A DNA stretch of 64,000 bases, taken from Naegleria gruberi (lineage: Eukaryota). The position numbers and the translations under genes were made by a program. A model generated the notes under the pieces. That model worked only from the letters and a program-made list of their open reading frames with translations. It had not been told where the DNA came from and did no database searches. Location of the stretch: NCBI GenBank assembly GCA_000004985.1, contig GG738898.1. The stretch is one strand, 5' to 3'. Of this stretch, positions 3,199-64,000 are shown in pieces (position 1 is the stretch's first letter; the number at the start of each line of letters is the position of its first letter).

Positions 3199-4192
3199 AT
3201 GGCTAATACTGTACTTGGTAGCACAACCGCTGCTAAACATGCAGTTGGTTTCAACCTTTCATTGTTGGTATGTAGATTTCACTTTGTTTATTGTCTGACA
3301 CTTGCTTGCGCACTATACTTTTGACATTTGGCGTTCAATAATTTTTCACACTCCATGCGAAAATGTTTAATATACACAAATATCTATTGCGAATTCGAAT
3401 TAACAGAAAGGTGGTACTATTACCCAAACAATTATTGGTGCAATTATTACAGCTTTGGTAATTGCTTCAACCGTTGCAACCATTATCTTGGTTTCTGTTG
3501 GTGTTGGTTACAATCCACCAGTTGCGTAAGTATTATCTAATTTATTCGAATTAATTTACGAATCTAAATTCTTTTTCACAGTGCCAATGACTTTGCTTCT
3601 ACTTATAAGAGAATGCCAGTCACTGTCGATGTACTCATAAATGATAACGATCCACGTGGTGGTAATCTTACTTTGACTCAAATTGTTAATCAACCAAAGT
3701 ATGGTACTGTCAAGATCCTTTCTCGTTCCCAAGTTGTTTATCAATCCATTGGTTCTTTCTCTGGAAATGACACTTTCAGTTATGAAGTTAGTAATTCCTT
3801 TGTTACAGCCAATGCTACTGTTACTGTTCAAGTTTTGAATAGACCTCCTCAAGCTGTTCCAATCTATAAGAAGATTTCCAAGAATGCTCATAAGGCCCTT
3901 GTCGATATTTTCAATTATGTTGGTGACAATGATGAAAGAATTAGTGATATCGATAATGATGTCTTGTATGTTACTGGCTTCGCTGATCAACAAGTTATCA
4001 GTGGTAATGCTCAAAGTTTGGGATCCATTGAAGTTGACACTTACAATGGTTTCTTGTACACTCCTGTTACTGGTTTCAATGGTATTGAAAAGTTTAATTA
4101 CACAATCTCAGATGGTAATGACACTGCTTCTTCAACTGTTACTGTTGAAGTTGAAAATGATGCTCCTATTGCCGTTGATGATTACTTTAGAA
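3199..4192 (+). CDS. VCBS/cadherin-like tandem-repeat membrane protein, copy 1 (3' end lost in assembly gap)
   Basis: Exon 1 is 3199-3267 (MANTVLGSTTAAKHAVGFNLSLL), with donor GTATGT at 3268. Exon 2 is 3407-3525 and encodes a TM helix (GAIITALVIASTVATIILVSVGVGY), with donor GTAAGT at 3526. Exon 3 starts at 3582 after acceptor CACAG and runs into N at 4193. Exon 3 encodes ~95-aa repeats with PVAVDD ... (V/N)L(I/A)ND(N/Y)D signatures. This is a paralog of 60163..>64000. Confidence 0.8.
3582..4192 (+). repeat. Segmental duplicate of 60802..61412 (same strand, 57,220 bp apart) with a sharp identity boundary
   Basis: Positions 3631-3875 differ from 60851-61095 at only 2 positions by eye, with no indels. 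Positions 3582-3630 against 60802-60850 are only about 70% identical. Beyond 3876 identity falls to roughly 88-90%. Introns and exons 1-2 are much more diverged. Confidence 0.8.
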
Positions 4193-7034: not shown

Positions 7035-7545
7035 NNNNNNNNNNNNNNNNNNNNNNNNNNNNNNNNNNNNNNNNNNNNNNNNNNNNNNNNNNNNNNNNNN
7101 NNNNNNNNNNNNNNNNNNNNNNNNNNNNNNNNNNNNNNNNNNNNNNNNNNNNNNNNNNNNNNNNNNNNNNNNNNNNNNNNNNNNNNNNNNNNNNNNNNNN
7201 NNNNNNNNNNNNNNNNNNNNNNNNNNNNNNNNNNNNNNNNNNNNNNNNNNNNNNNNNNNNNNNNNNNNNNNNNNNNNNNNNNNNNNNNNNNNNNNNNNNN
7301 NNNNNNNNNNNNNNNNNNNNNNNNNNNNNNNNNNNNNNNNNNNNNNNNNNNNNNNNNNNNNNNNNNNNNNNNNNNNNNNNNNNNNNNNNNNNNNNNNNNN
7401 NNNNNNNNNNNNNNNNNNNNNNNNNNNNNNNNNNNNNNNNNNNNNNNNNNNNNNNNNNNNNNNNNNNNNNNNNNNNNNNNNNNNNNNNNNNNNNNNNNNN
7501 NNNNNNNNNNNNNNNNNNNNNNNNNNNNNNNNNNNNNNNNNNNNN

Positions 7546-22500: not shown

Positions 22501-22945
22501 CATTACTGAGCCAAGAACAGTTACCATGTCCTGAACATGTGATCATGGTACTGTTATTATACTCACTTTCATTCCATGTCTTGGCTATCGAAGAACACTC
22601 CACATACTCGCACTCTTCTCCATAAAATCCCAACTGGCATTCACATTCAGTGTCATTTGTACAATTTCCTCGTCCAGAGCATATATTTATGCTAAGATTA
22701 TCATCAGTGAATAGCCTTAATTTGCAACTGTTGTGTCCCGATGATGATGTAGCAATTACTTTCGATAAAATTGCTCTCTGAATTATTAAGCATTGTATCA
22801 CCAATATTATCATGATCATAATATTTGTTATTGTTGTTATTCGCGTTTTCCATTTTACTCGCCTCCACACTTTGAATTTCTCATCCAAAAAGGTTGCTCC
22901 TTCACACGTATGATGATGAGAGTGAAGATGAACACGAATCGGCAT
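7546..22945 (-). CDS. Giant (>5,100 aa) single-exon surface protein: signal peptide, EGF-like (tenascin/ComC-type) repeats, ~1,600-aa NxS/T sequon-dense stalk, ~60 EGF-like repeats, beta-rich REJ/PKD-like region, GPS motif, one TM helix, Ser/Thr/Pro-rich cytoplasmic tail
   Basis: This is an uninterrupted 15.4-kb minus ORF from ATG at 22945 to gap 7545. The EGF repeats follow a ~33-aa periodicity of C..SG.G.C.....C.C...Y.G..CE. A GPS-like ...C..F...YSCSLQLKNDTHAYCKCSHFTNVFVIQ sits immediately before TM VAAAVFSAAIVCGLSCMFLLLFLVCFF at about 8440-8520. Codon usage is consistent throughout. Confidence 0.85.
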
Positions 22946-34279: not shown

Positions 34280-34807
34280 GTTGTTTTCTGTAATGAAAGA
34301 AGCTTTTAAACCAATTTCTGTGTACGGTTGCTTTTTCTAGAAACATGCTGACCTGGAGTCGTTATCAATTCAAGATATGAATATTACAAGGCATGGTTCA
34401 ATGTTTTTTATCAATGAAACATTCTATTTGAACTTAAACTTCTAATAGCAACACATACAAATGATTACAATAGTATCCAATAGTCTTCCACGATTATTCC
34501 TTCTCTCAATATTTTATAGACCTGACTTCCAAATTATCATATATAGCTGGAGATAAGGAGTTTAAAAATGAGCGATTCATTACAAGGAAGTCTAATTCGA
34601 ATTTATCCCTACGAAGAGTGAACAGTACTACTTCCTTTTCCATTTCATCATCTCATTTAATTATTTCCCCCAAGCAACCTTCCACTGTAATCAGAGCAAG
34701 ATCCCGGCTCCGTGAAAAGGTCGTCTCTGTGTGAATGCTATTAAACTATTGCCTTCTTGTGTTGTGGTCTGCAAATTTCAATCAAGAAAAAAACTTGTGA
34801 GATTAGT

Positions 34808-39358: not shown

Positions 39359-42300
39359 TTATTCAAAAATCTCATCTTCAACAACTGCTTTTACATGGTG
39401 CTTATCTGACAACAGATACGTGTTGCATAACCCTTTTCCTTTAACTTCGACACTTCTTTCCTCAAATTCAAATCCAATATGCTTCACTCTTTCATAAGTT
39501 GATAGTGAAATTTGAATCCTTCCTGAAAGTGATGTCGATTCCATTCTAGATGCTGTATTAACAGCATCACCCCACAAGTCGTAGGCAAACTTTTTTGTTC
39601 CAATTACACCAGCTACAGATTCTCCAGTATTCAAACCAATTCTAATATTGATCTGATGCCCAAATTCTAGTCGATGTTCCTCATTGTAAGATCTCACCAC
39701 CTGAAAAACGTCTATGGCAAATTTGAGTGTTCTTTCTGGATGGTCATCCTTTTCTGAGAGCTTGATTCCACCCACACAAAAGTAGGCATCACCAATGGTC
39801 TTGATCTTTTCCAAATTGTGTTTGTCAATGAGGGCATCAAAGCCATTCACTACATTATTCAACATGCCAACCAATTGAGTTGGATTAAGAGTTGAGGACA
39901 TTTTCGTGAAACCGACCATATCAGAGAAGAAACAAGTCATGTCATCAAACTTTTCTGCAATAAATGTATCTCCAGATTTCAATCTACTTGCGACACTCTC
40001 TGGTAAAATGGATCTTAACAAGTTTTCAGACTTTTTCTTTTCTTCAGCCAAGAGAGCGAGTTGTTTCTTGTCATTGGTCACGTCCTTAATGAAACAAGTA
40101 ATAACAGGCTTGTTATCAAAGAGTGTGGAAAATAAATTGACCTTTGCTGGAAATTTAGTTTGATTCTTTCTCAAACAATCTAAATCTACAGTTTCACCTT
40201 GAGATTCCTTTGTGGTGAGAGTTGATTGAATTAATTCGGAGATTAATCGGCTCAGCTCGTCTCTATTGTTCCTGTCGAAGAGACTTGTGAGTGAAGTACC
40301 AAGGGTATCACTTTGTTTGCAATTGAACATTTTCTGGGCTGCTGGATTGAAAATTTCAATTTCACATGCACTATTGCAAAGAACTGCTCCGTCAACAACA
40401 GAATTGAGAATATTTCTCACTTTGGATTCATCACCTGTTCCTTTAGAAATATTCTTCTTCTTTCCAAAAAGTGATCTACTTGGAAGTTTCTCATAGAGTA
40501 CGTACTCTCTTAGCTCATCAGATAATTCCAACTCTTCATATTGAACATAGTTTAAAAGCATTCTCATGTGTTCCGTATTTTTCGAATGTGATTTGAAAAT
40601 ACTTCTCAACATTAAAAAGATTGAAACAATGCAGATAGCACCAAGCACTCCAAAAACAATTACCATTGAGACAGAAGGAGTGGAACGAGTGATGGTGAAT
40701 AATGCGAGGAATTCCAGCAAGACTATACTAATGGTATGTGCCAACTCATCAATTTGGAAATGTTTCTCCAATAATTGAGAATCTGAGTAAATATTCTTCA
40801 TCAAGTCTTCATTTAGCTTTACACAACTCACCACGAATTCATCTACAATAGATTCCAAGCTGGAGCAGTTTTCACAAGCTTTAGTGGTGATAATTTCATC
40901 AATTCTTGGTACTATTCCCAAAATGGAAGGTGAGACTCCAATCTTTCCATAAATCATGTCATTATATGTAGATCTAAGATCTGTTACATTGAATCGGATA
41001 TCGTCTTTGAATAAATTTAAGGCTGAGTCATTGAACAGAGTTTTTGAATTGAAAAGTGAGCTCGGTAAATTACTGAAAGTCAATTCACCCATCTTGAATC
41101 CAATATTCTGAGTCAAAACAAGGGTCTCTGTTGTTTGTTTGACACTCAGCATGGTAGAGTAACCCAATTCTGAATTCAATACCAACTCGGCAAACATCAT
41201 AGATGCACATAATAAGGAAGCAAGAGCCATAACAATGAAAATTAAATATCGAAGCATATTTCTCTTCCTGTTGAAGGTGTTCAAAAATTGAGACGAGTTA
41301 CTGTGTGTGTACTTTCCCAATTCGGTATAAATATTCGAGATGAGCTCCTTCTTGATGTTCTTCTCGTAAGTTTTCAGAGTTCTTCCAATCTGAGAAAAGA
41401 AAATCTTCATGTACAAAAGGAAAGAAACAGCACAGATAACATAGACTCCACCAATGCTCACGAAAAAGTACAAGTAATCATTTGTAAATGTGTTCGCATT
41501 TACCTTGCATCTTTCAATGAAATCAAAGCAAATTTCTACAAAAGCATTTGTAAAACTATTGTAATTGAGATAGAGAATCATAAAGTTGTAAACATCAACT
41601 GTAGAATTGAAACCACTACTAGGATAGGACTCCACCAAGTGCATAAGAATGGAGGATATTTCTGAGAGTGAAACATTTTTTACAATGAAACTGTCATAAT
41701 ATCCACTGCTTCTTTTGTTTACAGTTGGAAGATAGAGCTTTTTTGTTTCTCCATTGTAGTCGTCATACATTTCAGGTGTGAACTTTCCAATCTTTTTTCC
41801 TTGTGACATTAGTTTAACATGCTCAATGTGTTCAACGTAGAAATCAACCCTTTCCTTCAATAATTCAGTAATTTTCTCCACCGATTGATCACTCTGTTCC
41901 AATGATAATACCATTTCATGATAAATTTGAGGAAGTGCCTTCTGGAGCGAAACTGAATTTTGAGACTGACTCATCTGCAACACTATTTGCTGATTTCTAA
42001 TCTGTTTGAAAATTGCATAACTTGAAACTGTTGGCTCGCAAACTTGCTGAACGAATTTCACATCAGCTAACACTCCATCAGAGAATACCAAACTCAATAC
42101 TGCCGCACAAATCAGGAAAGCTGCAGAAAGAAGGCAAAAACATAAGGCAAGACAAATATTGAACTCGTGTCCAATTGGTTGTGCAAGAGCCATCTTGAAT
42201 TTTTGATCTCTCTTTAAACTTGGATCTTCCTCCACACCATTCAAAAGTACATTCTCTGATATATCATCCAAATCCACTTCTACAGATTTATCATTCGCCC

Positions 42301-44437
42301 TATTATTATACAAGCCCTCAAGAAAGGCGATACTCTCCCCTCCTACTGCAGAAGTTTTCATTGCTTCCACTCGTTTTGCCTTCTTTGATTTTCTTAACAA
42401 GTTTGCTGCTTCTTCCTCTTCAAGCTCGTGTGCTTCAGAGTAGAATTCATTTGCAGTTTCTGAATCGAACTTGACCTCTTCCAAATATCTTGCATAAATT
42501 CTCAAGAAGGACTTGTTCATCTTGAAAGCTGAGAGTCTGTTTGAAAATGCAGTGTCCAAATCATTCATGATGGCTGTGCATTGTGTATTGATGATTTCTA
42601 ATGTTTCCACATTCACAATATCATTCATCATTTCCTTGAAGAATTCTCTATGGAGTGCTTTGAATTCTTTCAGTTTGGAGTCTAAACGAGAGGCAAGTTG
42701 TTCTGCATCGGTATGGATAGCGACAACTGGTTTGTTCTCCTTCTTGTTAATTTCCTTCATCAAATCATGACAAGCAATCTTGTCAGTGAGTGATGTACTT
42801 ATTCTACTTAGTTTTGTCATTAGTGAGAGGGAATAATTTGTGGCTCTCTCCTCTGTCATGCAGTAATAGACCAATAATGTGGCAAAATATAAGGTTATTG
42901 GATTTGCCAAAACTCTACTACTATGAGCCCCCTTAATGAGTGCCAGAGCCATGTCAGTATCTGTGAGTGAGCTATTTGGATCCTTTGGTTTTTCCTCATA
43001 ATTTGTTGCTCTCTTACGAATAATATCAACTGAGAAGCTAAAACGGAGAAAAATATTCAGTTGATTTGTTAGTTGTTTTTCTGAAATGTAAACTAGTATT
43101 GAGGTGGCTTTCTTTTCAATGAGACTTCGTATAGTCTCATTAGAAAGACTCTTTATAAGATTTGATTCTTTAGAAGAACTCAAATCCTCATATTGCCCAC
43201 CTTGTGTGAGAATAATCTGTCCAATTCTTCTCTTGATAATTCTAATGTAAGCTTCCATAGCTATAATTCCTCCAACGAATCCAATGACAATCAACCCTAA
43301 GGTAAGACCCATCATTCCCAATCCAAAATCCCATTTCACTGAAGTGTTAGTTAAAGAAGATATTAATGATCCAATGGCACCTCCAACTTTTGCTCCTGCA
43401 ATTCCTGAATAAATCGAATTTTCCCAAGACTTTTGGAATGGAAGAGATAGAAACAAAGGAATAAACCATGAAATAGACATGACCAAATGCACAATTGCTC
43501 TCCCAAAAACTTTTTGAGAGGGTATAAAGAAAATAATGAACACTTGTGAAATATTCGTGATGGAGAAGAATGTTAAAGGCCAATCATAAACCGGTTTGAA
43601 AACAAGAGAGCTATCCCATGTAGGAGAAAAACTAAAACGTGTCGCCATTATACTAATGCACAAAGTGATGAAGGCAACAATTGAGAATGCATAAAGAGTT
43701 AAATTTGAATTTCCAAAACATCTCACACTAGAAAATCTCTGCAATGCATAATCTGAATTATCAATCTCCTCAAAGTATACTGTCTTTGAATAATCACATT
43801 CGATAAAACTTGTCAAAATAAAGGCAAATATCATTGATAACCCATTCATGAAAAAGCCAACAAATAGTAATAGATTCTTCAGTTTCTCCATGTGCTTACT
43901 AGCTTTAAAAACTCCCCAAGCGGAGAACATGACCACCAACATGGCTATAAAACAAATGGTAATGACCAAACTAGTGATAACAACCATAGCATCATAGGGT
44001 ACTAAATCCAATGAGAGTGTAATTGGATAATTGAGAGCACGAAAAACCCACTCTCCATACTCTCCAAAATTAAAAGATCCCAACGTTGAGACCCAAACAC
44101 TAGTCCACAATATATACAAATTATACGCAACAGATAATAAAAGCTGTTTCCATCCTCTCCTCTGTTTTCTATCTTTCATTGATGAGATGAATGTAAAGAT
44201 TGCCTGTTGTCCATTCCTCATGATTGACGAAGTGATTGATGAAGATCGTCCCGTCTGATGACTTGTCTCACTCTCCACTATACTACTTCCATCGAAAACT
44301 TCATTTTGAGGCCTCCTTATTCCCTCAAAGAGAACTGTTGAATTATCTATTGATGCTGCTTGTAGTTGATGATGAGAAACCCCACCCTGAATAAGTATAC
44401 TCGTTCGCGGAGAAACAACAACACCAGAATGTTCCAT
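39359..44437 (-). CDS. Multi-pass membrane adenylyl cyclase with PAS domain and single C-terminal class III cyclase catalytic domain
   Basis: This is a 1692-aa single-exon ORF. It has two clusters of about 6 hydrophobic helices (residues ~95-400 and ~950-1250). A PAS-like segment (NILNSVVDGAVLCNSACEIEIFNPAAQKMF...) follows. A cyclase transducer element (LLRSILPESVASRLKSGDTFIAEKFDDMTCFFSDMVGFT) and the catalytic core (KIKTIGDAYFCVGGI ... AYDLWGDAVNTASRMEST) follow, at about 40117-39487. The specificity residues K and D indicate ATP rather than GTP. Confidence 0.85.
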   Translation of the reverse strand: MEHSGVVVSPRTSILIQGGVSHHQLQAASIDNSTVLFEGIRRPQNEVFDGSSIVESETSHQTGRSSSITSSIMRNGQQAIFTFISSMKDRKQRRGWKQLLLSVAYNLYILWTSVWVSTLGSFNFGEYGEWVFRALNYPITLSLDLVPYDAMVVITSLVITICFIAMLVVMFSAWGVFKASKHMEKLKNLLLFVGFFMNGLSMIFAFILTSFIECDYSKTVYFEEIDNSDYALQRFSSVRCFGNSNLTLYAFSIVAFITLCISIMATRFSFSPTWDSSLVFKPVYDWPLTFFSITNISQVFIIFFIPSQKVFGRAIVHLVMSISWFIPLFLSLPFQKSWENSIYSGIAGAKVGGAIGSLISSLTNTSVKWDFGLGMMGLTLGLIVIGFVGGIIAMEAYIRIIKRRIGQIILTQGGQYEDLSSSKESNLIKSLSNETIRSLIEKKATSILVYISEKQLTNQLNIFLRFSFSVDIIRKRATNYEEKPKDPNSSLTDTDMALALIKGAHSSRVLANPITLYFATLLVYYCMTEERATNYSLSLMTKLSRISTSLTDKIACHDLMKEINKKENKPVVAIHTDAEQLASRLDSKLKEFKALHREFFKEMMNDIVNVETLEIINTQCTAIMNDLDTAFSNRLSAFKMNKSFLRIYARYLEEVKFDSETANEFYSEAHELEEEEAANLLRKSKKAKRVEAMKTSAVGGESIAFLEGLYNNRANDKSVEVDLDDISENVLLNGVEEDPSLKRDQKFKMALAQPIGHEFNICLALCFCLLSAAFLICAAVLSLVFSDGVLADVKFVQQVCEPTVSSYAIFKQIRNQQIVLQMSQSQNSVSLQKALPQIYHEMVLSLEQSDQSVEKITELLKERVDFYVEHIEHVKLMSQGKKIGKFTPEMYDDYNGETKKLYLPTVNKRSSGYYDSFIVKNVSLSEISSILMHLVESYPSSGFNSTVDVYNFMILYLNYNSFTNAFVEICFDFIERCKVNANTFTNDYLYFFVSIGGVYVICAVSFLLYMKIFFSQIGRTLKTYEKNIKKELISNIYTELGKYTHSNSSQFLNTFNRKRNMLRYLIFIVMALASLLCASMMFAELVLNSELGYSTMLSVKQTTETLVLTQNIGFKMGELTFSNLPSSLFNSKTLFNDSALNLFKDDIRFNVTDLRSTYNDMIYGKIGVSPSILGIVPRIDEIITTKACENCSSLESIVDEFVVSCVKLNEDLMKNIYSDSQLLEKHFQIDELAHTISIVLLEFLALFTITRSTPSVSMVIVFGVLGAICIVSIFLMLRSIFKSHSKNTEHMRMLLNYVQYEELELSDELREYVLYEKLPSRSLFGKKKNISKGTGDESKVRNILNSVVDGAVLCNSACEIEIFNPAAQKMFNCKQSDTLGTSLTSLFDRNNRDELSRLISELIQSTLTTKESQGETVDLDCLRKNQTKFPAKVNLFSTLFDNKPVITCFIKDVTNDKKQLALLAEEKKKSENLLRSILPESVASRLKSGDTFIAEKFDDMTCFFSDMVGFTKMSSTLNPTQLVGMLNNVVNGFDALIDKHNLEKIKTIGDAYFCVGGIKLSEKDDHPERTLKFAIDVFQVVRSYNEEHRLEFGHQINIRIGLNTGESVAGVIGTKKFAYDLWGDAVNTASRMESTSLSGRIQISLSTYERVKHIGFEFEERSVEVKGKGLCNTYLLSDKHHVKAVVEDEIFE

Positions 44438-52733: not shown

Positions 52734-55366
52734 ATGAACAAGACATTTGGCATGTTATCATGTCTGTTACTCTGTCTCATTGTATGCCTCGTCAGTGAAG
52801 AGACACACGCATTGACAGCAACAGAATTATTGCAAGTTAGAGCAACTCTCCTTTCAAATGTCACTTCAATTCCTTATTCATATGTTGGTTATTTGTTTAG
52901 TCATGGCAGCAATTCTGTTCCAATTATTGTTGGTTCTGGAGGTAATGCAGTAGTAGTTGCAGCTACTAGCTCCAATTCCTTGTCCACAGCTGGTCGAATT
53001 TGTGCATTTGGACATAACGGTTATGCATACACATCTGACATGACATCTGGCACAGCTCAATTATTGAAAAATTGTGCTAAATGGACTACCAAAAACAAAG
53101 CCAATGTCAGTTACATGCTACACGGAGTCAGTCAAAGTGGTGGCTCCACTTTTTATAACTCAATTTCAGGATTTTCATTGAACACATCAAAGAATGCATT
53201 CGACGAATTGGTTCGTCCATTAGAAAGCGTTGATTTACTAATTTTGAATTTAAATTCACTCTCAGGTGAGGCAACCTCCACTCAAATCCAAATGCTCTCC
53301 GACTTTTTGAATAGAGGTGGTGGAATTATTTGTGTAACTACTGCTTGGGCTTATTCCATTTCTGGAAATAGATTTCCTGGAAATGTGTTCTTTTCCAGAT
53401 TGGGAGTTTCATTCTATACAGCTTATTTTGAAGGTAGCCCATTTGTGGCATCTACTAAGGATTTGAGTGAAGTGAATGCTTATTTCAAATTGGAACAAAT
53501 TCAAAATACCTTTTCTTTATATGGAAATGTTTCTACAGATGATGTGAATACAGTTGGAAATATGCTATCCAATGTGTATCCAACATTGCCACAGCCAATT
53601 ACCTTAAATTCCATTGAAACGAATCAAAAAGCCAAAACTGTCTATGATTCCATTTGTGGAAGTACAACAATTTCCTTCCCAGTTTCGTCTTCTTTCCAGA
53701 AATTCTGTGTAGTCATGGTGGACACACTAAACAAGGCAAACATTTTACCAATCTCAAATAATCCACAAGTTTTGGCAGGTGAAAACTTCCCNNNNNNNNN
53801 NNNNNNNNNNNNNNNNNNNNNNNNNNNNNNNNNNNNNNNNNNNNNNNNNNNNNNNNNNNNNNNNTATATCGTATAGTGGAGGTACCATTTACTTTGATGT
53901 GTCCAAAATTCCGTTATCCTTCACTGCAACCATCACAGGACAAGTGGTAAAAANCTCCCTTTTTTAGAAATGACCTTCACACAGATTCTGATTGGAAAAA
54001 TACCATTAGAAATTATCCAGGACCTTGGGTAGAAGTTGAATCCGATTATTTCGTATTCAATGTTGAGTCGTCCTATGCCAGAAACTTGACAGAATTGACC
54101 AGTGTCACAAATTACTGGAAAAAGGTTTTGGAGCTTTATTATGAACTCTCCCAAAGACCAATTAGAGATTATAAGGAAAGAATGCAAATTGATATCGATA
54201 TTTCAATTGGATATATGCATTCTGGATACCCAATTATGGCATTTCAGGACCAAAATGAAGGAACTATTAAGGCAGTCAACCCTGCCAACATGGCTCTTGC
54301 TTCAAAAACTCCTGGACGTTGGGGACATTACCATGAATTGGGACACAATTTCCAAGTTTCTGATTGGACCTACTCTCAAGCAGTTGAAGTAACTTGTAAT
54401 ATTTTCTCTTTATATTTGGAAGAGAATTTCCCAGATTCGGCCAATACTTATGGAAAGTCGTTTAATCCACCGAGAGGTCTTGAGACCACTTTTAAGGGAA
54501 ATACTCAGGATTATAAGGGGGATTGGACAAGTGCTGGTTTATTGTTTTATTTGGATTTGATTCAAGCTTTCGGTTGGGTTTCTATTCGAAAGGCATTTGC
54601 TGAATATTATACAGCAGCTTCTGGAACTTTACCAACCAGCGAGGATGAAAAGAGAGATCAATGGGTTGTAAGATACAGTAAGATTGTTGGTAGAAATCTT
54701 GGGCCTTTCTGTGATGCTTGGAGTTTCCCAATTTCACAATCAGCCAAAAGTCAAGTTTCTAATTTAACTTCATGGATGCCAAATAATTTCATTGTTGGAT
54801 GTTCAGTAGCTCGTTTCTCTGATTCACCTTGTGCTTCATTAACCATTCAAGATAATTCCTATGCCAAGTCAACCACCTATGAAGTGAAAATTGTAACTTG
54901 GACACCAGTGAGAAGTATTTATGGTGAACGTTTCATTTTCACTTTCGGTGGTGATTCTCTTCCTCAATTACAAACTGGAACAACAGCTCTCACCTTATTG
55001 GATGGAACAACAAGTTTGAACTCAACTGCTGTTGTGACTAATAATAATGGAACGAGTATTACACTTTCGACCAATGTTGTCGAGTTTGTCAAATCTGGAC
55101 AACTATTGAAATTCTCCTTCCAAGCAAAGAATAGTGTCAAGATTGGAAGCTTTACCACTTCAATTAAGATATTGGATTCAAAGAATGTATTGGTAAATGT
55201 TGTGGAGAGACCATTAGAGTTTACCAATTCAATTGTCATTCCAACTTCATCTTCAACAGTGGTTGGAAAGAAGAGTACAGTTACTGGCAATTCTACCAAG
55301 AACGGGATGAATGTAGTGTTAATTGCATTCTTGATTGGTTGGGTATTATTTGTTTATTCCTTCTAG
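52734..55366 (+). CDS. Secreted/anchored peptidase M60-like (enhancin-like) zinc metallopeptidase with HEXXH motif
   Basis: A signal peptide (MNKTFGMLSCLLLCLIVCLVS) is followed by an N-terminal accessory region. The catalytic region contains WGHYHELGHNFQ (HEXXH). A hydrophobic C-terminus (GMNVVLIAFLIGWVLFVYSF) is compatible with a TM or GPI signal. The gene is split into two ORFs by N-gap 53792-53864 and an ambiguous base at 53954. It is probably one continuous gene. Confidence 0.7.
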
Positions 55367-58045: not shown

Positions 58046-59377
58046 TTATCTCAAGTAAAGAGCACCATTTCTGTTGGTGAGTGTAGCACTAGCAACACTT
58101 GTTGTATCATAGACGTATTGAACACCAGGATTGAATCCAGGACCTGGACCTCCCTCAGGACATGAAGGATAAGTATAAGTTGCCCAAACCGTGCCTGCAC
58201 CTGCATTCATGAAAGAGTCAGTTGTAGCACGTGGAATACCCATTCTGAACCCCATACAGTGCATATCTGATGTCTTACTATAGGTGACATAGGTTGGAAG
58301 AGTTAGAACATTCTTCAAATTGTAACATGTTGCAGGAATGGCAGCATAATAAGTTTGCATCGTTGGATCACTGTATGCTGTTACTCTTGTTCTTTGAACG
58401 TAATCTCTCAATCCTTGTGGAATTGTACAATAGGCACTATATTGCCAATCATTTGTAAAGAAATTAGAAAAAGCAATAGTTGCTGCATTACCACTGTCAG
58501 TGGATGCTCTAATCTGAGTGGAAATATTCATCAAATCAGATGTTGGAATGTGGAATGTAATAGTATCATTTGTAGTGGTGGCAGCATTATCATCAAAGAC
58601 GTGGAAGTGAGCTCCGTAATAGTCTCTTCTAATACCAGCAAACATGGTCCATCCTCCACCGTCTGTATCCATATCACAATAGACTGTCATGACTGTATTT
58701 CCAGGTTTAATTTGATACAATCCACTTCCTTCACCCAAGTACATTCTAGGAGCTATTGGATTTCTATACTCCTTACATGATCTTGCATAGGTTCCATCGG
58801 CATATTTAAATCCACTCACTGAATTATAGCTGGTTGTTGTACCATTGACTGTTTCACAATTATCTCCAATGTAAGGTGATTTACAGGAACACTTATTGGA
58901 GGATGTACAGTTACCACGTCCAGAACAAACTGAGGCGCTTGTGGCGAGTACACCAAAACATGCCATTTGCATGCAATTGATTCCGGCCCATCCTGAGGCG
59001 CATCCTTGGTTGCAATCATCACCACTATAATGTTGACATGTTGTTGTGATGGTGTTAACTTCCAATGAGAGACTATCGATGGCGGTTTGAATTTTATCAG
59101 ATTGTTTTTGTCTCAGTATTATAATTGAGGTCAAATTTGCATTTCCAGTAGAGTTGAGGAGGGAAATAGCAGACGTGATTTTAGCCTTTGTACTCACTAG
59201 CTTTGCAAGTTCTGCATTAAGGTCGGTAAGGTAGGATCTAATGCTGCATCCTCCTGGGAGAGTGCATGTAAAATTTTGTTGTCCATTCACAACATGATAT
59301 GTTGCGGATGATGATAACAACCCAACCAAAATGAGCAGCAAGACTCGTGTGGAAATGAGATGAGCGATGCCTTGCAT
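58046..59377 (-). CDS. Secreted EGF-like plus fibrinogen-related-domain (FReD/FBG) protein (tenascin/ficolin-like)
   Basis: It has a signal peptide and a helical N-terminal region. One tenascin-type EGF follows (CFGVLATSASVCSGRGNCTSSNKCSCKSPYIGDNCE). The FBG core is ...SGLYQIKPGNTVMTVYCDMDTDGGGWTMFAGIRRDYYG.. The VYCDM.TDGGGWT motif is diagnostic. Confidence 0.8.
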   Translation of the reverse strand: MQGIAHLISTRVLLLILVGLLSSSATYHVVNGQQNFTCTLPGGCSIRSYLTDLNAELAKLVSTKAKITSAISLLNSTGNANLTSIIILRQKQSDKIQTAIDSLSLEVNTITTTCQHYSGDDCNQGCASGWAGINCMQMACFGVLATSASVCSGRGNCTSSNKCSCKSPYIGDNCETVNGTTTSYNSVSGFKYADGTYARSCKEYRNPIAPRMYLGEGSGLYQIKPGNTVMTVYCDMDTDGGGWTMFAGIRRDYYGAHFHVFDDNAATTTNDTITFHIPTSDLMNISTQIRASTDSGNAATIAFSNFFTNDWQYSAYCTIPQGLRDYVQRTRVTAYSDPTMQTYYAAIPATCYNLKNVLTLPTYVTYSKTSDMHCMGFRMGIPRATTDSFMNAGAGTVWATYTYPSCPEGGPGPGFNPGVQYVYDTTSVASATLTNRNGALYLR

Positions 59378-60162: not shown

Positions 60163-63100
60163 ATGCCAGCTACTATCTTGAACGGTTCTACCACTTCAAG
60201 TTCTGGTCTCAATATTAACCTTTCATTGTTGGTAAGTTTACATATTTCACATGAGCTTAATTATAATTCTTTATTGTTGTTGTTGCTGATCTTTCTCCAC
60301 ACCAATGACATCTGGCACTGTGATCTCTCTTACTCTTTCGATATTTTAATATCACATGCTAAACTAATTACTTTGAATGGCCATGTTGTTTCTTTTCTAA
60401 ATTCTCCACTTTGACCAAAACGCGGTCAATTCAACTTTTTAAAAAATTGGCATCACATTTGATCTTCTGAATCTTTGCAACGCGATTTTCCTTCTTTGCT
60501 CCTTTGGCGCTTTTTCTGGTGCGGTTCAATCATCATCAATATTAATTTATTGTTAAAATTACTTTTTTAAATGATGAATCCGTGTTGAGTAGAAAGGAGG
60601 TACTATTAGTCAGACAATTGTATGTTTTTTAAATATTTTGTATGTTTAATATTTTGAATGTTAGGTTGGTGCAATTATTACAGCTTTGGTAGTTGCTTCC
60701 ACAGTTGCTACTATTATCTTGGTTTCAGTTGGTGTTGGTTATTCTAGTCCTCAACCGTATGTACTTTTAAAATTCATTATTTGAAATTAATTGAAATCTA
60801 GTCAACCTGATTTTGCTACTACTTACAAGAGAGTGCCTATTACTGTTGATGTACTCATAAATGATAACGATCCACGTGGTGGTAATCTTACTTTGACTCA
60901 AATTGTTGATCAACCAAAGTATGGTACTGTCAAGATTCTTTCTCGTTCCCAAGTTGTTTATCAATCCATTGGTTCTTTCTCTGGAAATGACACTTTCAGT
61001 TATGAAGTTAGTAATTCCTTTGTTACAGCCAATGCTACTGTTACTGTTCAAGTTTTGAATAGACCTCCTCAAGCTGTTCCAATCTATAAGAAGATCTCCA
61101 AGAATGCTAATAAGGCTCTCGTTGATATTTTCAATTATATTGGTGACAATGATGAAAAGATTACTGATATTGATAATGATGTCTTGTATGTTACTGGCTT
61201 CGCTGATCAACAAGTTACCAGTGGTAATGCTCAAAGTTTAGGTGCAATTGAAATTGATCCTTACAATGGTTTCTTGTACACTCCTGTTAATGGTTTCAAT
61301 GGTATCGAACAATTCAAGTATACCATCTCAGATGGTAATGACACTGCTTCTTCAACTGTTACTGTTGAAGTTGAAAATGATGCTCCTGTTGCTACTGATG
61401 ATGTTTACAGAATTCCAAAATATAGTAGTTTGGAATTGCTCATTTTACAAAATGATTATGATATCAATGGTGATGATTTCAATGTTACCAACGCTGTTGG
61501 TGCTGGTTATGGTGCTCTTCGTGTTCAAGACAAGACTGTTGTCTATTTCACTTCAAGTGTTTTAACCAAAAAGTATACTGATTCTTTCGAATATTCAATT
61601 TCTGATAGTCAAGCTTCAGGATCTGCTGTAGTTTCTGTTCAAGTTTACAATACTGAACCAACTGTCTACTCCAAGACTGTCACTGTTGGAAAGTCCTCTT
61701 CCAATAACCTCATTTCAATTGATTACTCTGATCCTGATGGAAAGGATGTTGTCGTATTGACCAAAGTTACTCCTGCATTGGCCTCTCTTAATCCAGCTGC
61801 TTCCATGCAAGTTGCTAAGGGTACTAAACGTGTCAACCTTGATTGTTGTGATTGGGTTAGCGTTGAAACTAATAATTACACTATTGTTTATACTCCAACT
61901 CCTGGAGTTGTTTACTCACAAACTTTGGATATTTCCATGACAGATGGTGAATCTGATGGCTATGGTAAGATTACTATTAATGTAGTCAATAATCCACCTG
62001 TTGCTGTTGATGACACTGTTACTTGTAATAAGAATCAACAAGTTTTGATTAATGTTCTTGCCAATGACTATGATGTTAACCCAGGCGATACTGAACTTCT
62101 TCAATTAACTAATAACGGTTGGCAATCAACTACCAAGAATGGTGGTTCTGTTTCTATTTATAATGCTACACATGTATTGTATGTTGCTCCAAAGGGTAGT
62201 TTGGCTACTGATGTTGCCTCCTATAGAATCTATGATCAAAGCAAAGATGTACAAGGTAATCCAGATTCTACTGGTTTCTCAACTGGTAAGATTAGTATTA
62301 ACATTATCAATAATCCACCTGTTCCTGTTGATGATGTTTTTACTATTTCAAAGGGTCTTAATGCCACTTTGAACGTTTTGAATAATGATTATGATCCTAA
62401 TTTCGATCTTATTTCAACAATTAACTCTGTTGATAGATCAACTGTTAAAAATATCTTGGCTACTATTGTTAAGAATTCTGGTGAAAATGATACCTTATTC
62501 TATACTGCTGCTAATGAAGAGTACACTGATTACCTTACTTATGATGTAATTGATGTTGACGGTTTGGTTTCTGAAAATAAGGCCACTGTCACTTTGAATG
62601 TTGTCAATAATGCTCCAGTTGCTAGAGATGATACTTATAGTGTTAACTGGAATCACAATATTTTGTGCCCTGTCAAGACTAATGATGCTGATATCAATGG
62701 TGATTTGCCTTCTTCCAAGATTGAAATTTATCAAAATCCATCTAATGGTGTTGTTGAAGTTATTAGTGATAGTGTAAGATATACTCCAAATACTGCATTT
62801 GTTGGTGTTGATACTTTCCAATACAAGTTGAACGATGGTAGTGTTGCCAATTTCTTGTCAAATGCTGCTACTGTTACAATTAATGTTTTGAATACTGCTC
62901 CTGTTGCTGTTGATGATACTGCCACTACTCACTGGAGAAATGATGCTGGTGTTTTAGTCAGTGTTTTGGTTAATGATTCTGATAATGAAGGTGATTCCTT
63001 GTCTGTTACCAATGCTCTAGTTGATGCTGTACTGCTTCAGTTTTTGATAGTCAAACTGTCAAGTTTGTTTCAACTCAAACCTCTGCTACTGTTGGTACTA

Positions 63101-64000
63101 AGCAAATTAAGTATACCGTCTCTGATGGAAACAAGAATACCATTGGAAATGTCAATGTCTTGGTTACAAATACCAAACCAGTCGCTTTTGCTGATGCTTA
63201 CACTTACCACTGGGCTGCTCCAAAACAAACATTGAGTGTCATGTCTAACGATAAGGATGCCGACCTTGATCCAATTTCAATCAAATCTGTTTCTGGAAGT
63301 GCTGCCGCTGTTAAGAATGGAAATGATATTGATTATACTCCAAAGAAGGATGGTGTTACTGATACCTTCCAATATGTCATTACTGATACTGTTACTGATG
63401 CTGATCCAGCAACTGTCACTGTTACTTTCACTAACAATGACAAGCCAGTTGCTTCAAGTGTTTCAACTTCTATTCACTGGAGAGCTTTCGCTGCTCAATC
63501 TAATCAACAAGATTTCTCTGTTTATTCCTCAACAACTGATGCTGATGGTGACGCTCTTACATTGACTGTTAATCCAACTGCTACTGGTATTTCTGGTGCT
63601 TCATGTAGCAAGACCACTGATTCAATTGCCAAGGTTAGAGTTACAGCTCCAACCAAGACTACTGGTTCTGCCACCTGTTCCTTCTCAGTTTCTGATGGTT
63701 TGGCAAATACTGGATCAAAGACTGCTACTGTTACTATAACTAACAATGCTCCAACATGTACTGATATTACTGTTTTCTTCAATGCTATCTATGTGTCAGT
63801 TGGTCAAACATTCTCCGTTTCTTCATCTGTTAGTGATGCTGATTCTGCTGATGTTCCTTATTTGGCAGCTAGTAGTGCAATCATGTCTGGTTCATTCTCA
63901 GGTGATACATTCTCTGTTTCAAATGGTAACCTCCTCTTCAAACCAAATGGTCAATTGGGTAATCGTGTTTATGGTTATAAGGTTACTGATGGTATTGTTG
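60163..64000 (+). CDS. VCBS/cadherin-like tandem-repeat membrane protein, copy 2 (continues beyond window end)
   Basis: Exon A is 60163-60231 (MPATILNGSTTSSSGLNINLSLL), with donor GTAAGT. A 433-nt intron follows. Exon B is 60665-60756 and encodes a TM helix (VGAIITALVVASTVATIILVSVGVGY), with donor GTATGT. A 45-nt intron follows. Exon C starts at 60802. It contains at least 11 ~95-aa repeats with PVAVDD...NVLANDYD...GD motifs. There is an apparent 1-nt frameshift near 63030, after which the coding frame continues to 64000. Confidence 0.8.

What the first reader, a model, noticed from the sequence alone, without database searches (positions are those of the whole stretch)
60802..64000. Bacterial-style VCBS/cadherin-like repeat array in an intron-containing eukaryotic gene with an added TM exon
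The ~95-aa repeats are punctuated by PV(A/P)VDD ... (N/V)VL(A/N)ND(Y/S)D...(G/N)D motifs. Such repeats are typical of large bacterial adhesins (VCBS / cadherin-like / tandem-95 repeats) and are uncommon in eukaryotes. Here they sit in genes with host-like codon usage, GT-AG introns and a separately encoded signal-anchor TM helix. This suggests an old horizontal acquisition that was then domesticated into a surface protein family. An apparent 1-nt frameshift near 63030 may be a sequencing error.
Basis: partly seen in the sequence, partly recalled or inferred. Interest (0 to 1): 0.55.

Follow-up and report, generated by a model that had tools for sequence, protein, structure and literature searches.

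The report
Bacterial-type adhesin repeats in Naegleria gene
This is a Naegleria gruberi gene for a membrane-anchored giant surface protein whose long stalk is built from ~95-residue repeats otherwise typical of bacterial adhesins. It belongs to an uncharacterised family shared by Naegleria and Willaertia amoebae that was probably founded by an old gene transfer from bacteria.

Summary
From 60802 to the window end there are 10 complete and 1 partial tandem repeats of 86-113 aa. They match tandem-95 (NF012211, 153.5 bits, cutoff 90), Big_9, Cadherin_4 and Cadherin_5, but not VCBS or eukaryotic cadherin. The window is Naegleria gruberi NEG-M. The gene has GT-AG introns and a signal-anchor helix. 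The 1-nt frameshift is real in the assembly (incomplete codon at 63029-63030); whether it is an error or a mutation cannot be told.

The gene is the orthologue of N. fowleri FDP41_006209 (2312 aa). It belongs to a family in three Naegleria species, Willaertia magna and environmental contigs. The family architecture is a conserved N-terminal tail, a TM helix, about 20 tandem-95 repeats and a C-terminal VWA domain. All other relatives examined are bacterial.

Signs of long residence:
- host codon usage;
- lineage-specific introns;
- position-by-position repeat orthology;
- strongly diverged sibling repeats;
- a 2-3 fold depletion of N-glycosylation sequons relative to bacterial homologues.

The VWA head resembles eukaryotic integrin-I/collagen VI domains, so the protein is probably chimeric. 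The TM helix has its own exon only in this copy. A second, gap-truncated copy lies at 3199-4192. Interest is moderate.

The parts
60163..60231 (+). Exon 1: start codon and cytoplasmic tail, MPATILNGSTTSSSGLNINLSLL (69 nt)
   Evidence: Read directly, followed by GTAAGT. Aligns to the N-termini of copy 2, N. lovaniensis P0001 and N. fowleri P0131.
60232..60592 (+). Intron 1 (GTAAGT...TAG, 361 nt)
   Evidence: Defined by the conserved micro-exon that follows. An intron at this position (after NLSLL) is also in copy 2 (3268-3406) but not in N. fowleri or N. lovaniensis.
60593..60619 (+).
   Evidence: Flanked by tAG and GTATGT. KGGTITQTI is present in copy 2, N. lovaniensis, N. fowleri and Willaertia proteins. 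No RNA evidence.
60620..60664 (+). Intron 2 (GTATGT...TAG, 45 nt). The position is shared with N. fowleri and N. lovaniensis within 1 nt and is absent from copy 2.
60665..60756 (+). Exon 3: signal-anchor TM helix, VGAIITALVVASTVATIILVSVGVGYSSPQ(P)
   Evidence: Kyte-Doolittle 19-residue mean of 2.54. The TM segment is nearly identical in N. lovaniensis and N. fowleri.
60757..60801 (+). Intron 3 (GTATGT...TAG, 45 nt, phase 2). Same position and phase in copy 2; absent in N. fowleri and N. lovaniensis.
60802..64000 (+). Exon 4: tandem-95/Big_9 repeat array. It runs off the window end.
   Evidence: Pfam and NCBIfam matches. Collinear with residues about 67-1140 of N. fowleri FDP41_006209 and N. 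lovaniensis C9374_005925.
60803..61060 (+). Repeat R1 (86 aa)
   Evidence: Own HMM and tiling. Best match is repeat 1 of the N. lovaniensis orthologue.
61061..61378 (+). Repeat R2 (106 aa, atypical)
61379..61651 (+). Repeat R3 (91 aa)
61652..61990 (+). Repeat R4 (113 aa, atypical, with LDCCDW)
   Evidence: The CC motif is conserved in the N. lovaniensis and N. fowleri orthologues and in N. gruberi paralogue P0002.
61991..62893 (+). Repeats R5, R6 and R7 (107, 99 and 95 aa). This is the segment that was modelled.
   Evidence: AlphaFold2 mean pLDDT 90.1, three all-beta domains. Foldseek hits to Aeromonas RTX-adhesin repeats (6xi1), the cadherin-like domains of 6dlh, and animal cadherin ectodomains.
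62894..63171 (+). Repeat R8, interrupted by the frameshift
63029..63030 (+). Frameshift site: an incomplete codon 'gt', one base missing relative to the orthologues (Gly there)
   Evidence: As assembled, the reading frame ends at the stop codon 63233-63235.
63172..63435 (+). Repeat R9 (88 aa)
63436..63747 (+). Repeat R10 (104 aa, degenerate)
63748..63999 (+). Repeat R11 (partial, cut by the window end)
3199..4192 (+). Second copy of the gene (paralogue). Exons are 3199-3267, 3407-3525 and 3582-4192. It is cut off by assembly gaps (N runs 4193-4558 and 4598-4802).
   Evidence: tblastn gives 90.5% aa identity to copy-1 residues 57-257. Sequence. 88.6% DNA identity over 756 nt.

Best explanation
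The locus is the N. gruberi orthologue of N. fowleri FDP41_006209 and N. lovaniensis C9374_005925. It is a member of a multigene family found in Naegleria and Willaertia that encodes giant type II membrane proteins.

Architecture: a conserved tail of about 32 residues, presumably cytoplasmic; one signal-anchor TM helix; an extracellular rod of about 20 tandem-95/Big_9 cadherin-like beta-sandwich domains (10 complete and 1 partial inside the window); and, in the full-length relatives, a distal VWA domain with an intact MIDAS motif and a Cys-rich insert.

Most likely function: the repeats keep the acidic (L/V)xNDxDxxGD loops and form a long, calcium-stiffened stalk. The stalk holds the metal-dependent VWA head far from the membrane, where it binds substratum, prey or matrix. 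This would make it an adhesin.

Origin: the stalk most likely came from a bacterial tandem-95 adhesin gene transferred before Naegleria and Willaertia diverged. It was then joined to a eukaryotic anchor and a eukaryote-type VWA head and adapted to the secretory pathway.

Shown: domain identity, gene structure, family distribution, orthology, predicted fold, codon adaptation, sequon depletion.
Inferred: membrane topology, calcium binding, adhesive function, direction and single origin of the transfer, and the presence of VWA in this particular copy, whose 3' end lies beyond the window.
For: - Organism: four window ORFs are exact N. gruberi proteins.
- Domains.
- Predicted fold: pLDDT 90.1, with RTX-adhesin and cadherin-like matches.
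- Family: ten representatives are collinear with the query from residue about 15-73 onward. Those that carry names are N. fowleri, N. lovaniensis, N. gruberi and Willaertia magna proteins.
- Shared N-terminal tail, TM helix and C-terminal VWA.
- Orthology: an NJ tree places the window gene as sister to the N. lovaniensis and N. fowleri pair.
- Repeat orthology: window repeats R1-R11 best match repeats 1-11 of the N. lovaniensis orthologue, in order.
- Bacterial relatives: 36,409 hits overall. The named top hits are bacterial (Burkholderiaceae, Mycolicibacterium, MAGs). The nearest short hits sit in bacterial gene neighbourhoods and have 62% GC.
- Host adaptation: GC3 0.22-0.24 and CAI 0.81-0.83; introns at lineage-specific positions.
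- Repeat divergence: the median within-protein repeat score is 52, against 124-397 in bacterial proteins.
- Sequons: N-x-S/T observed/expected is 0.51 here and 0.29-0.57 in most family members, against a median of 1.34 in 120 bacterial-type hits. In the calcium-loop motif, the ND-x-D position is S/T in 71% of 3231 bacterial motifs but only 17% of 104 family motifs.
- N. gruberi has the N-glycosylation pathway (PMC4973528).
- VWA profile: best PDB matches are collagen VI, PTMP1, integrin alpha-I and MIC2.
Against: - There is no RNA or protein evidence for expression, splicing or localisation.
- As assembled, the gene is frameshifted and would stop at 63233-63235, inside R8. This copy may be non-functional.
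- Its 3' end, and therefore its VWA domain, is outside the window.
- No resolved phylogeny or donor lineage exists. Repeats are about 25-35% identical to bacterial ones, so the similarity is close to saturation.
- Other eukaryotes could not be surveyed systematically. The libraries lack taxonomy, and one search tool returned only hits up to about 1.75 times the query length.
- At least one unrelated amoeba (Vermamoeba) also carries a tandem-95 homologue. The domain is therefore not unique to this lineage among eukaryotes.
- PDB is biased towards eukaryotic VWA domains, which weakens the conclusion that the head is eukaryotic.
Confidence: 0.72

Rival explanations
1. This copy is a recently inactivated pseudogene. 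The 1-nt deletion at 63029-63030 is real, and translation stops at 63233-63235 inside R8. The result would be a headless protein of about 870 aa or no stable product. Paralogues (copy 2, P0002, NAEGRDRAFT_72752) would cover the function.
For: - The frameshift is in the assembly and not in a homopolymer.
- No ~100%-identical N. gruberi model of up to 1389 aa was returned.
- Paralogues exist in the same genome, one of them 57 kb away.
Against: - The frame downstream of the shift stays open for all 321 codons to the window end.
- That downstream frame still scores Big_9 at 3.6e-19 and stays collinear with the orthologues. Any inactivation must be very recent.
- The region is hard to assemble: copy 2 ends in scaffold gaps.
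- The N. lovaniensis orthologue is also split by a probable assembly frameshift next to short A5 and T4 homopolymer runs.
Confidence: 0.35
2. The repeats are vertically inherited from an ancient eukaryotic cadherin-like or Ig-like repertoire and were lost in most other eukaryotes. No horizontal transfer took place.
For: - The family predates the Naegleria-Willaertia split.
- Its repeats are highly diverged.
- The fold resembles animal cadherins.
- Other eukaryotes were not surveyed systematically.
Against: - The sequence matches bacterial Pfam and NCBIfam families at E about 1e-45 to 1e-66, with no hit to eukaryotic Cadherin PF00028 at E<=1.
- Each window repeat is on median more similar to bacterial repeats than to its own sibling repeats.
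- Among the 120 best hits, only Naegleria entries are eukaryotic.
- Sequon depletion relative to bacterial homologues is what is expected after import into a glycosylating host.
Confidence: 0.1
3. A complete bacterial adhesin gene (repeat stalk plus vWFA ligand-binding domain, as in RTX adhesins) was transferred whole. Only the N-terminal anchor was added in the eukaryote.
For: The order of stalk followed by a C-terminal VWA mirrors the layout of bacterial RTX adhesins (established knowledge; the Legionella RtxA paper PMC11264772 was listed but not read).
Against: - The 60 best PDB matches listed for the family VWA profile all carry names of eukaryotic extracellular VWA proteins: collagen VI, mussel PTMP1, integrin alpha-I, apicomplexan MIC2, von Willebrand factor.
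- Pfam VWA PF00092 scores higher than VWA_2.
- The family-specific signature TDGxxNxPCS has no relative in 185,579 bacterial and archaeal species genomes.
- Orthologues have no RTX nonapeptide or retention-module hits.
Confidence: 0.12
4. Bacterial contamination or a chimeric assembly produced the repeat array.
For: None beyond the bacterial-type domains.
Against: - The array is contiguous with N. gruberi genes on a 310-kb scaffold.
- It has 35-39% GC with host codon usage, against 62% GC in the nearest bacterial gene.
- It has spliceosomal introns.
- Orthologues are present in three other independently assembled genomes.
Confidence: 0.01

Closest known systems
Bacterial tandem-95 / Big_9 / 'bacterial cadherin-like' repeat proteins: giant Ig-like adhesins, including the extender regions of RTX adhesins such as the Aeromonas hydrophila adhesin 6XI1, and the Pfam Cadherin_4 type that UniRef labels RapA2 cadherin-like
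   Same: - The same repeat family by curated HMM thresholds.
- The same ~95-aa period.
- The same acidic (L/V)xNDxDxxGD loops.
- The same predicted beta-sandwich beads-on-a-string fold.
- The same overall logic of anchor, long stalk and distal ligand-binding head.
   Different: - It is encoded in a eukaryotic nucleus with introns and host codon usage.
- It is anchored by an N-terminal TM helix instead of an outer-membrane retention module.
- Orthologues have no RTX nonapeptide repeats or T1SS signal.
- Repeats within one protein are far more diverged from each other (median score 52 against 124-397).
- N-glycosylation sequons are purged, especially in the calcium loop (NDYD instead of NDS/TD).
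- The VWA head is closest to eukaryotic matrix and integrin-type VWA domains.
Dictyostelium SibA-D ('similar to integrin beta') adhesion receptors
   Same: An amoebal surface adhesion receptor built from a VWA domain, 'bacterial-like repeats (RTX family/adhesin-like)' and one TM helix (table in PMC2651865). The VWA domain is distal to the membrane and the bacterial-type repeats form the stalk.
   Different: - Sib proteins are type I, with an N-terminal VWA, four repeats and a C-terminal TM plus a talin-binding tail (my recollection of Cornillon et al. 2006; that paper is not held).
- The family here is type II, with an N-terminal anchor, about 20 repeats and a C-terminal VWA carrying a Cys-rich insert.
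- Herman et al. 2021 could not identify Sib orthologues in Naegleria (PMC8296547).
- Sequence homology to Sib repeats was not tested here, so this may be a convergent assembly.
Heterolobosean paralogues and orthologues already in databases: N. fowleri FDP41_006209 ('VWFA domain-containing protein') and FDP41_003925 ('Tandem-95 repeat protein'); N. lovaniensis C9374_005925 and C9374_012226; N. gruberi NAEGRDRAFT_72752 and P0002; Willaertia magna ABK040_005755
   Same: The same family. They share the N-terminal tail motif, the TM helix, a collinear repeat array (35-62% identity over the first ~800 aa) and the VWA head. The window gene is the orthologue of FDP41_006209.
   Different: - The window copy carries a frameshift and is cut by the window end.
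- Intron positions differ between members.
- The long subfamily (2800-3560 aa) has more repeats and an extra C-terminal extension.
- None is experimentally characterised, and none of the four locus tags searched (FDP41_006209, FDP41_003925, NAEGRDRAFT_72752, C9374_005925) appears in the searchable literature.
Vermamoeba vermiformis tandem-95 homologue (g6416)
   Same: An amoebal gene whose best match is a bacterial tandem-95 repeat protein. It is reported as a transfer candidate and as the most highly expressed bacterial-like gene (PMC7125106).
   Different: It is from a different supergroup (Amoebozoa). Its sequence and architecture are not available here, so any relationship to the heterolobosean family is unknown.
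Animal classical cadherins and protocadherins
   Same: Tandem calcium-linked beta-sandwich ectodomains. They are structural neighbours of the model in Foldseek.
   Different: There is no sequence-level membership: PF00028 is not hit. Identity in the structural alignments is 10-18%, and the topology and anchor differ.

Membership tests
Tandem-95 repeat domain (NCBIfam NF012211) | Score above the curated cutoff (90 bits) | tested here: met
   153.5 bits in 5 stretches for 60803-63028. The part downstream of the frameshift scores 45.1 bits on its own.
Pfam Big_9 (PF17963) / Cadherin_4 (PF17803) / Cadherin_5 (PF17892) | Score above the gathering threshold, with multiple tandem stretches | tested here: met
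   220.9, 184 and 96.7 bits, 7 stretches each. Downstream part: 69.9, 42 and 40.9 bits.
Tandem-95 / Big_9 repeat proteins | Head-to-tail repeats of about 95 aa with PVAxDD ... VLxNDxDxxGD ... YTP ... DG motifs | tested here: met
   11 units of 84-113 aa. Their motifs line up with the consensus of 55 homologues.
Tandem-95 / Big_9 repeat proteins | Ig-like or cadherin-like beta-sandwich fold per repeat | tested here: met
   AlphaFold2 model of R5-R7 with pLDDT 90.1, all-beta. Foldseek probability 1.00 to 6xi1, 6dlh and cadherins. This is a prediction only.
Tandem-95 / Big_9 repeat proteins | Calcium binding at the acidic loops | not testable with these tools
   The motifs are retained in R1, R3 and R5-R9 (read directly). 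Binding itself was not assayed.
VCBS repeat (TIGR01965 / Pfam PF13517) | Match to the VCBS model | tested here: not met
   No VCBS hit in NCBIfam at E<=0.01 or in Pfam at E<=1. The JGI 'VCBS' labels on some homologues are the annotators' names only.
Eukaryotic cadherin (PF00028) | Match to the cadherin domain model | tested here: not met
   Absent from the Pfam hits at E<=1. The resemblance is at fold level only.
Bacterial RTX / LapA-type T1SS adhesins | N-terminal retention module, C-terminal RTX nonapeptide repeats and T1SS signal | tested here: not met
   The N-terminus is a tail plus a TM helix. The full-length orthologue and paralogues have no PF22352 or PF00353 hits. The C-terminus of this copy lies outside the window.
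Heterolobosean tail-TM-tandem-95-VWA family (defined here) | Conserved N-terminal tail (..NLSLLKGGTI(T/S)QTI) followed by a TM helix | tested here: met
   Exons 1-3 encode MPATILNGSTTSSSGLNINLSLL|KGGTISQTI|VGAIITALVVASTVATIILVSVGVGY. Compare P0001, P0131 and P0155.
Heterolobosean tail-TM-tandem-95-VWA family (defined here) | Repeat array collinear with other members, repeat by repeat | tested here: met
   R1-R11 best match repeats 1-11 of the N. lovaniensis orthologue. Single collinear HMMER stretches to ten family representatives. Tree.
Heterolobosean tail-TM-tandem-95-VWA family (defined here) | C-terminal VWA domain with MIDAS (DxSGS..T..TDG) and a Cys-rich insert | not testable with these tools
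   The 3' end of the gene lies beyond base 64000, and the N. gruberi scaffold could not be fetched. The feature is present in the orthologues and paralogues.
Dictyostelium Sib family | Type I topology with a C-terminal TM and a talin-binding cytosolic tail; sequence homology of the repeats | not tested
   No Sib sequence was available and the original paper is not held. The topology here is the reverse (N-terminal anchor). The architecture description comes from PMC2651865.

The most novel reading that the evidence does not exclude
The family may be the missing adhesion receptor of Naegleria. It would be a functional counterpart of integrins and Dictyostelium Sib proteins, assembled independently from a bacterial adhesin stalk and an integrin-I-like VWA head. 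Its N. fowleri orthologue (FDP41_006209) would contribute to attachment to extracellular matrix, possibly accounting for the unexplained 'integrin-like' reactivity. The sequon purge of the calcium loops would then be a general, datable signature of bacterial surface proteins being adapted to the eukaryotic secretory pathway.
Probability: 0.2. Interest if true: 0.7.

Novelty: new member of a known kind. Interest (0 to 1): 0.4.

Why it matters
Herman et al. [quoted passage not shown] The window gene belongs to a conserved, uncharacterised family with the architecture expected of a long-reach adhesin: membrane anchor, about 20 calcium-type beta-sandwich domains, and a MIDAS-bearing VWA head closest to integrin I-domains and collagen VI. 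This gives concrete candidates, including an orthologue in the pathogen.

In evolutionary terms it is a clean example of a bacterial adhesin module built into a eukaryotic membrane protein. Host adaptation is measurable in codon usage, intron gain, loss of repeat homogenisation and removal of N-glycosylation sequons from the calcium loops. It also parallels the VWA plus bacterial-repeat design of Dictyostelium Sib proteins in an unrelated amoeba lineage.

For genome annotation it flags three problems: a missed micro-exon, a frameshift to be checked in N. gruberi, and a split gene model in N. lovaniensis.

Tried and rejected
- Contamination or misassembly as the source of the array. Rejected on scaffold context, introns, codon usage and orthologues.
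- VCBS and eukaryotic cadherin membership. No model hits.
- Bridging the frameshift with an intron. The only GT..AG nearby (gtactgcttcag) is 12 nt long and a multiple of three, so it would not restore the frame. The orthologues are collinear with no gap there.
- Fetching the rest of the N. gruberi gene or scaffold. The look-up of encoding contigs holds no N. gruberi genes.
- Checking whether the gene is annotated. No ~100% hit was returned. However, that tool returned only proteins up to about 1.75 times the query length, and the representative library merges sequences above 50% identity. The answer is 'cannot tell'.
- Origin of the VWA head. The word-index search with the N. fowleri C-terminus gave only one environmental fragment. 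The pattern scan of bacterial and archaeal genomes found no relative. The PDB profile search gave eukaryotic VWA domains.
- A viral vector. No relative in IMG/VR.
- Close environmental relatives that might show the unshifted frame. None in metagenome contigs.
- PDB sequence search with the repeats. No hit at E<=0.001.
- The Cornillon 2006 Sib paper is not held.
- A suspected C-type lectin domain at the end of the long subfamily was not confirmed by Pfam and was dropped.
- Literature searches found no paper on this family: Naegleria with cadherin-like, adhesin/HGT or von Willebrand; tandem-95; and the locus tags.

Full report
OBSERVATION. The + strand from 60802 to the window end is one long coding exon. 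Translation in the frame of 60803 runs to about 63028. From there the homologous reading continues one base further on, in the frame of 63037, to base 63999. The product consists of ten complete repeats and one partial repeat of 86-113 residues. Pfam matches Big_9 (2.8e-66, seven stretches), Cadherin_4 (6.3e-55) and Cadherin_5 (7.2e-28). Downstream of the shift, Big_9 scores 3.6e-19. NCBIfam's tandem-95 domain NF012211 scores 153.5 bits against a curated cutoff of 90. No VCBS model and no eukaryotic cadherin model (PF00028) is matched. The precise label is therefore tandem-95 / Big_9 / bacterial cadherin-like.

ORGANISM AND CONTEXT. Four ORFs of the window are exact matches to annotated Naegleria gruberi proteins (EFC39609, EFC39675, EFC39676, EFC39678) on a 310,422-bp scaffold. 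Neighbouring genes are typically eukaryotic: a DOCK DHR-2 protein, a PAS-cyclase, an M60 peptidase, a fibrinogen/EGF protein and a 5316-aa EGF/teneurin-like ORF. The repeat gene has 35-39% GC and GC3 of 0.22-0.24. Its codon adaptation index against the neighbours' codon table is 0.81-0.83, at or above the neighbours' own values of 0.68-0.78. The nearest bacterial homologue examined has 62% GC. Contamination is excluded.

GENE MODEL. The parts are as follows:
- Exon 1 (60163-60231) encodes MPATILNGSTTSSSGLNINLSLL.
- Exon 60802 onward encodes the repeats.
- All phases fit.

It encodes KGGTISQTI. The same nonapeptide (KGGTITQTI) sits at the same place in the second N. gruberi copy, in N. lovaniensis, in N. 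fowleri and in Willaertia. Both models are in frame, so RNA data are needed to exclude skipping.

THE FAMILY. The word-index search found N. lovaniensis C9374_005925 (60% identity) and an N. gruberi paralogue carrying VWA (56%). Every other listed hit that carries a source organism name is bacterial (one is an archaeal MAG), at about 25-35% identity; the rest are unnamed metagenome entries. That tool returned only proteins up to about 1.75 times the query length. The exhaustive representative search was more informative. It gave 36,409 hits, most of the top ones giant multi-repeat proteins. Ten hits were collinear with the query over a single stretch starting at residue about 15-73.

The names for those collinear hits are as follows:
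- N. fowleri FDP41_006209 (2312 aa, 'VWFA domain-containing')
- N. fowleri FDP41_003925 (3547 aa, 'Tandem-95 repeat protein')
- N. lovaniensis C9374_012226
- N. gruberi NAEGRDRAFT_72752
- Willaertia magna ABK040_005755
- one EukProt entry of unknown species
- four environmental contigs

All share three features:
- a conserved N-terminal tail (MPExITLGSTT..GFNLSLLKGGTITQTI) followed by a TM helix;
- about 20 tandem-95 repeats;
- a C-terminal VWA domain with an intact MIDAS motif (DxSGS...T...TDG) and a conserved Cys-rich insert (TDGxxNxPCSC...CxPC).

An NJ tree of the first ~800 residues places the window gene as sister to the N. lovaniensis and N. fowleri pair. It is therefore the orthologue of FDP41_006209. 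Window repeats R1-R11 find their best matches in repeats 1-11 of the N. lovaniensis protein, in order. The array therefore already existed in its present order before these species diverged. The N. lovaniensis annotation splits the gene into two models at an apparent frameshift next to short A5 and T4 homopolymer runs (L001 about 13690-13710). Joined, it is about 2298 aa and ends in VWA. By inference, the window gene continues about 3.5 kb past base 64000 and ends in the same head.

BACTERIAL ORIGIN AND DOMESTICATION. The top non-family hits that carry names are bacterial: a Burkholderiaceae MAG, Mycolicibacterium and other MAGs. The best short hits lie among dapB, DHDPS and aspartate kinase genes, or among Tn3, resolvase and HepT genes. 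No single donor stands out.

Several features indicate long residence in the eukaryote.

(i) Codon usage is host-like.

(ii) Introns are present, but their positions are lineage-specific:

| Gene | Intron positions |
|---|---|
| N. gruberi copy 1 | after NLSLL; after QTI; after the TM helix |
| N. gruberi copy 2 | after NLSLL; after the TM helix |
| N. fowleri | after GSTT; after QTI; one in VWA (TM helix and all repeats on one exon) |
| N. lovaniensis | after GSTT; after QTI; two inside R1 |
| Willaertia paralogue | none |

The TM helix therefore has its own exon only in the window copy. The exon structure is not evidence for exon shuffling.

(iii) Repeat homogenisation is absent. The median similarity score between sibling repeats is 52, against 124-397 within bacterial proteins. 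Most window repeats resemble typical bacterial repeats more than they resemble their own siblings. Only R5 and R6 look like a pair.

(iv) N-glycosylation sequons are depleted:
- The ectodomain has 10 N-x-S/T sequons where composition predicts 19.5 (z = -2.6).
- N. fowleri has 14 against 37 (z = -4.5) and Willaertia 16 against 55 (z = -6.9).
- Most family members have observed/expected ratios of 0.29-0.57.
- The median ratio for 120 bacterial-type hits is 1.34, and only two fall below 0.6.
- Other proteins of this window lie at 0.76-1.2, and the EGF giant at 2.33.
- The main contributor is the calcium-loop motif. In [LIVMF]xNDxD, the x between the two aspartates is Ser or Thr in 71% of 3231 bacterial motifs, which creates a sequon. 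It is Ser or Thr in only 17% of 104 family motifs, where Tyr is commonest.

N. gruberi has a near-complete N-glycosylation pathway (PMC4973528). The simplest reading is selection against glycans in the metal-binding loops once the protein entered the ER. This also supports an extracellular, type II orientation.

THE HEAD IS NOT OBVIOUSLY BACTERIAL. A profile of eleven family VWA domains finds collagen VI, mussel PTMP1, integrin alpha-I domains, apicomplexan MIC2 and von Willebrand factor among solved structures; all 60 matches listed carry such eukaryotic names. Pfam VWA scores above VWA_2. The TDGxxNxPCS signature has no relative in 185,579 bacterial and archaeal genomes. With the caveat of PDB bias, the protein looks chimeric: a eukaryotic anchor, a bacterial-type stalk and a eukaryote-type head.

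STRUCTURE AND MECHANISM. An AlphaFold2 model of R5-R7 is confident (mean pLDDT 90.1) and shows three all-beta domains in a row. Foldseek places it with the tetra-tandem extender repeats of an Aeromonas RTX adhesin (6xi1), the cadherin-like domains of a fucoidanase (6dlh) and animal cadherin ectodomains.

Taken together, the most likely function is a type II membrane adhesin. A short conserved cytoplasmic tail would be a candidate site for a cytoskeletal or sorting partner. One TM helix follows, then a calcium-stiffened rod of about 20 domains, then a MIDAS-dependent ligand-binding VWA head at the far end. If each domain spans about 4-4.5 nm, as in RTX-adhesin extenders (established knowledge), the rod would be on the order of 80-90 nm long. 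Topology, calcium binding and adhesion are inferences.

THE FRAMESHIFT. At 63029-63030 a codon has only two bases (gct | gt | act gct tca). Both orthologues read through with Gly. As assembled, translation would end at 63233-63235 inside R8. The downstream frame stays open for all 321 codons to the window end. It still matches Big_9 and remains collinear with the orthologues. The lesion is therefore either an assembly error or very recent. The site is not a homopolymer. On the other hand, this family is evidently hard to assemble, as shown by the gaps in copy 2 and the split model in N. lovaniensis. I cannot decide between the two.

SECOND COPY. A paralogue lies on the same strand at 3199-4192. 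It has the same tail, TM helix, R1 and R2, with 90.5% amino-acid and 88.6% DNA identity. It runs into scaffold gaps. A 240-bp tract (60867-61106 against 3647-3886) is 237/240 identical, while the flanking coding sequence is 85-88% identical and the introns about 40%. This suggests recent gene conversion.

COMPARISON WITH WHAT IS KNOWN. At the domain level this is a member of the tandem-95/Big_9 superfamily; all testable criteria are met. It works like a bacterial RTX/LapA-type adhesin but is not one, because it has no retention module, no RTX repeats and no T1SS signal. [quoted passage not shown] Sib proteins have the opposite topology, and homology to them was not tested. A tandem-95 homologue that best matches bacteria is also reported as highly expressed in Vermamoeba (PMC7125106).

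The heterolobosean proteins are in public databases with automatic names. I found no paper that describes them, and none of the four locus tags I searched appears in the searchable literature. Herman et al. 2021 found no Sib orthologues or integrin-like protein in Naegleria and called its adhesion factors mysterious.

VERDICT.
- the repeats are not VCBS;
- a micro-exon was missed;
- the TM exon is not a family feature;
- the transfer probably concerns only the stalk;
- no donor can be named.

The finding is a new member of a known kind, in an uncharacterised family of moderate interest. What was added here is the family definition, the chimeric architecture and the sequon-purge signature.

Noticed in passing
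window 3199-4192 (+), gaps 4193-4558 and 4598-4802: A second copy of the same gene (tail, TM helix, R1, R2; 90.5% aa identity) sits 57 kb upstream on the same strand. It is truncated by two runs of N, so whether it is complete is unknown. It lacks the intron after QTI that copy 1 has.
   Followed up: yes
window 60867-61106 versus 3647-3886: A 240-bp tract is 237/240 identical between the two copies. Flanking coding sequence is 85-88% identical and the introns about 40%. This looks like a recent gene-conversion tract, or possibly an assembly collapse.
   Followed up: partly
family-wide; window 60803-63999: N-x-S/T sequons are 2-3 fold depleted in the heterolobosean proteins relative to composition and to bacterial homologues. 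The calcium-loop motif changes from NDS/TD (71% of bacterial motifs) to mostly NDYD. The few retained sequons (for example GNDTFSY and ANATVTV in R1) are conserved between species.
   Followed up: yes
L001 about 13690-13710 (N. lovaniensis PYSW02000025.1): The N. lovaniensis orthologue is annotated as two genes (C9374_005925 and the next model, 13849-17403). They are separated by an apparent frameshift next to short A5 and T4 homopolymer runs. Joined, they give a protein of about 2298 aa with a VWA domain.
   Followed up: partly
window 6995-22945 (-): A single 5316-aa ORF is made largely of EGF_2 and teneurin-type EGF repeats. It has 388 N-glycosylation sequons where composition predicts 166 (ratio 2.33), the opposite trend to the tandem-95 gene.
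   Followed up: partly
window 52734-53876 and 54086-55366 (+): The second ORF carries the C-terminal four-fifths of a Peptidase_M60 (enhancin-like) domain (3.9e-44) and ends in a hydrophobic tail. The upstream ORF has no Pfam hit. The two may be exons of one gene.
   Followed up: no
window 58046-59377 (-): NAEGRDRAFT_72633, the immediate upstream neighbour, has a weak fibrinogen C-terminal domain hit (3.3e-06) and an EGF-like hit. It is another putative secreted or surface protein.
   Followed up: no
window 39359-44437 (-) and 34757-37723 (+): A 1692-aa protein with PAS and adenylate/guanylate cyclase domains, and a 988-aa protein with two beta-lactamase-fold stretches. Both appear ordinary for this genome and unrelated to the finding.
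   Followed up: no
P0002 (N. gruberi paralogue on a 707-kb scaffold): This 1343-aa model starts inside the TM helix. Relative to the orthologues it lacks about 900 residues (R8 to about R16) and part of the VWA insert. It is either a shortened paralogue or an incomplete gene model.
   Followed up: no
N-terminal about 32 residues of all family members (window 60163-60231 and 60593-60619): The presumably cytoplasmic tail is strikingly conserved from Naegleria to Willaertia and in the environmental relatives (..N(L/F/I)SL(L/V/M)K.GT..QT..). This suggests a binding partner or sorting signal. It contains a conserved NLS tripeptide, which would be a sequon if the tail were lumenal.
   Followed up: no
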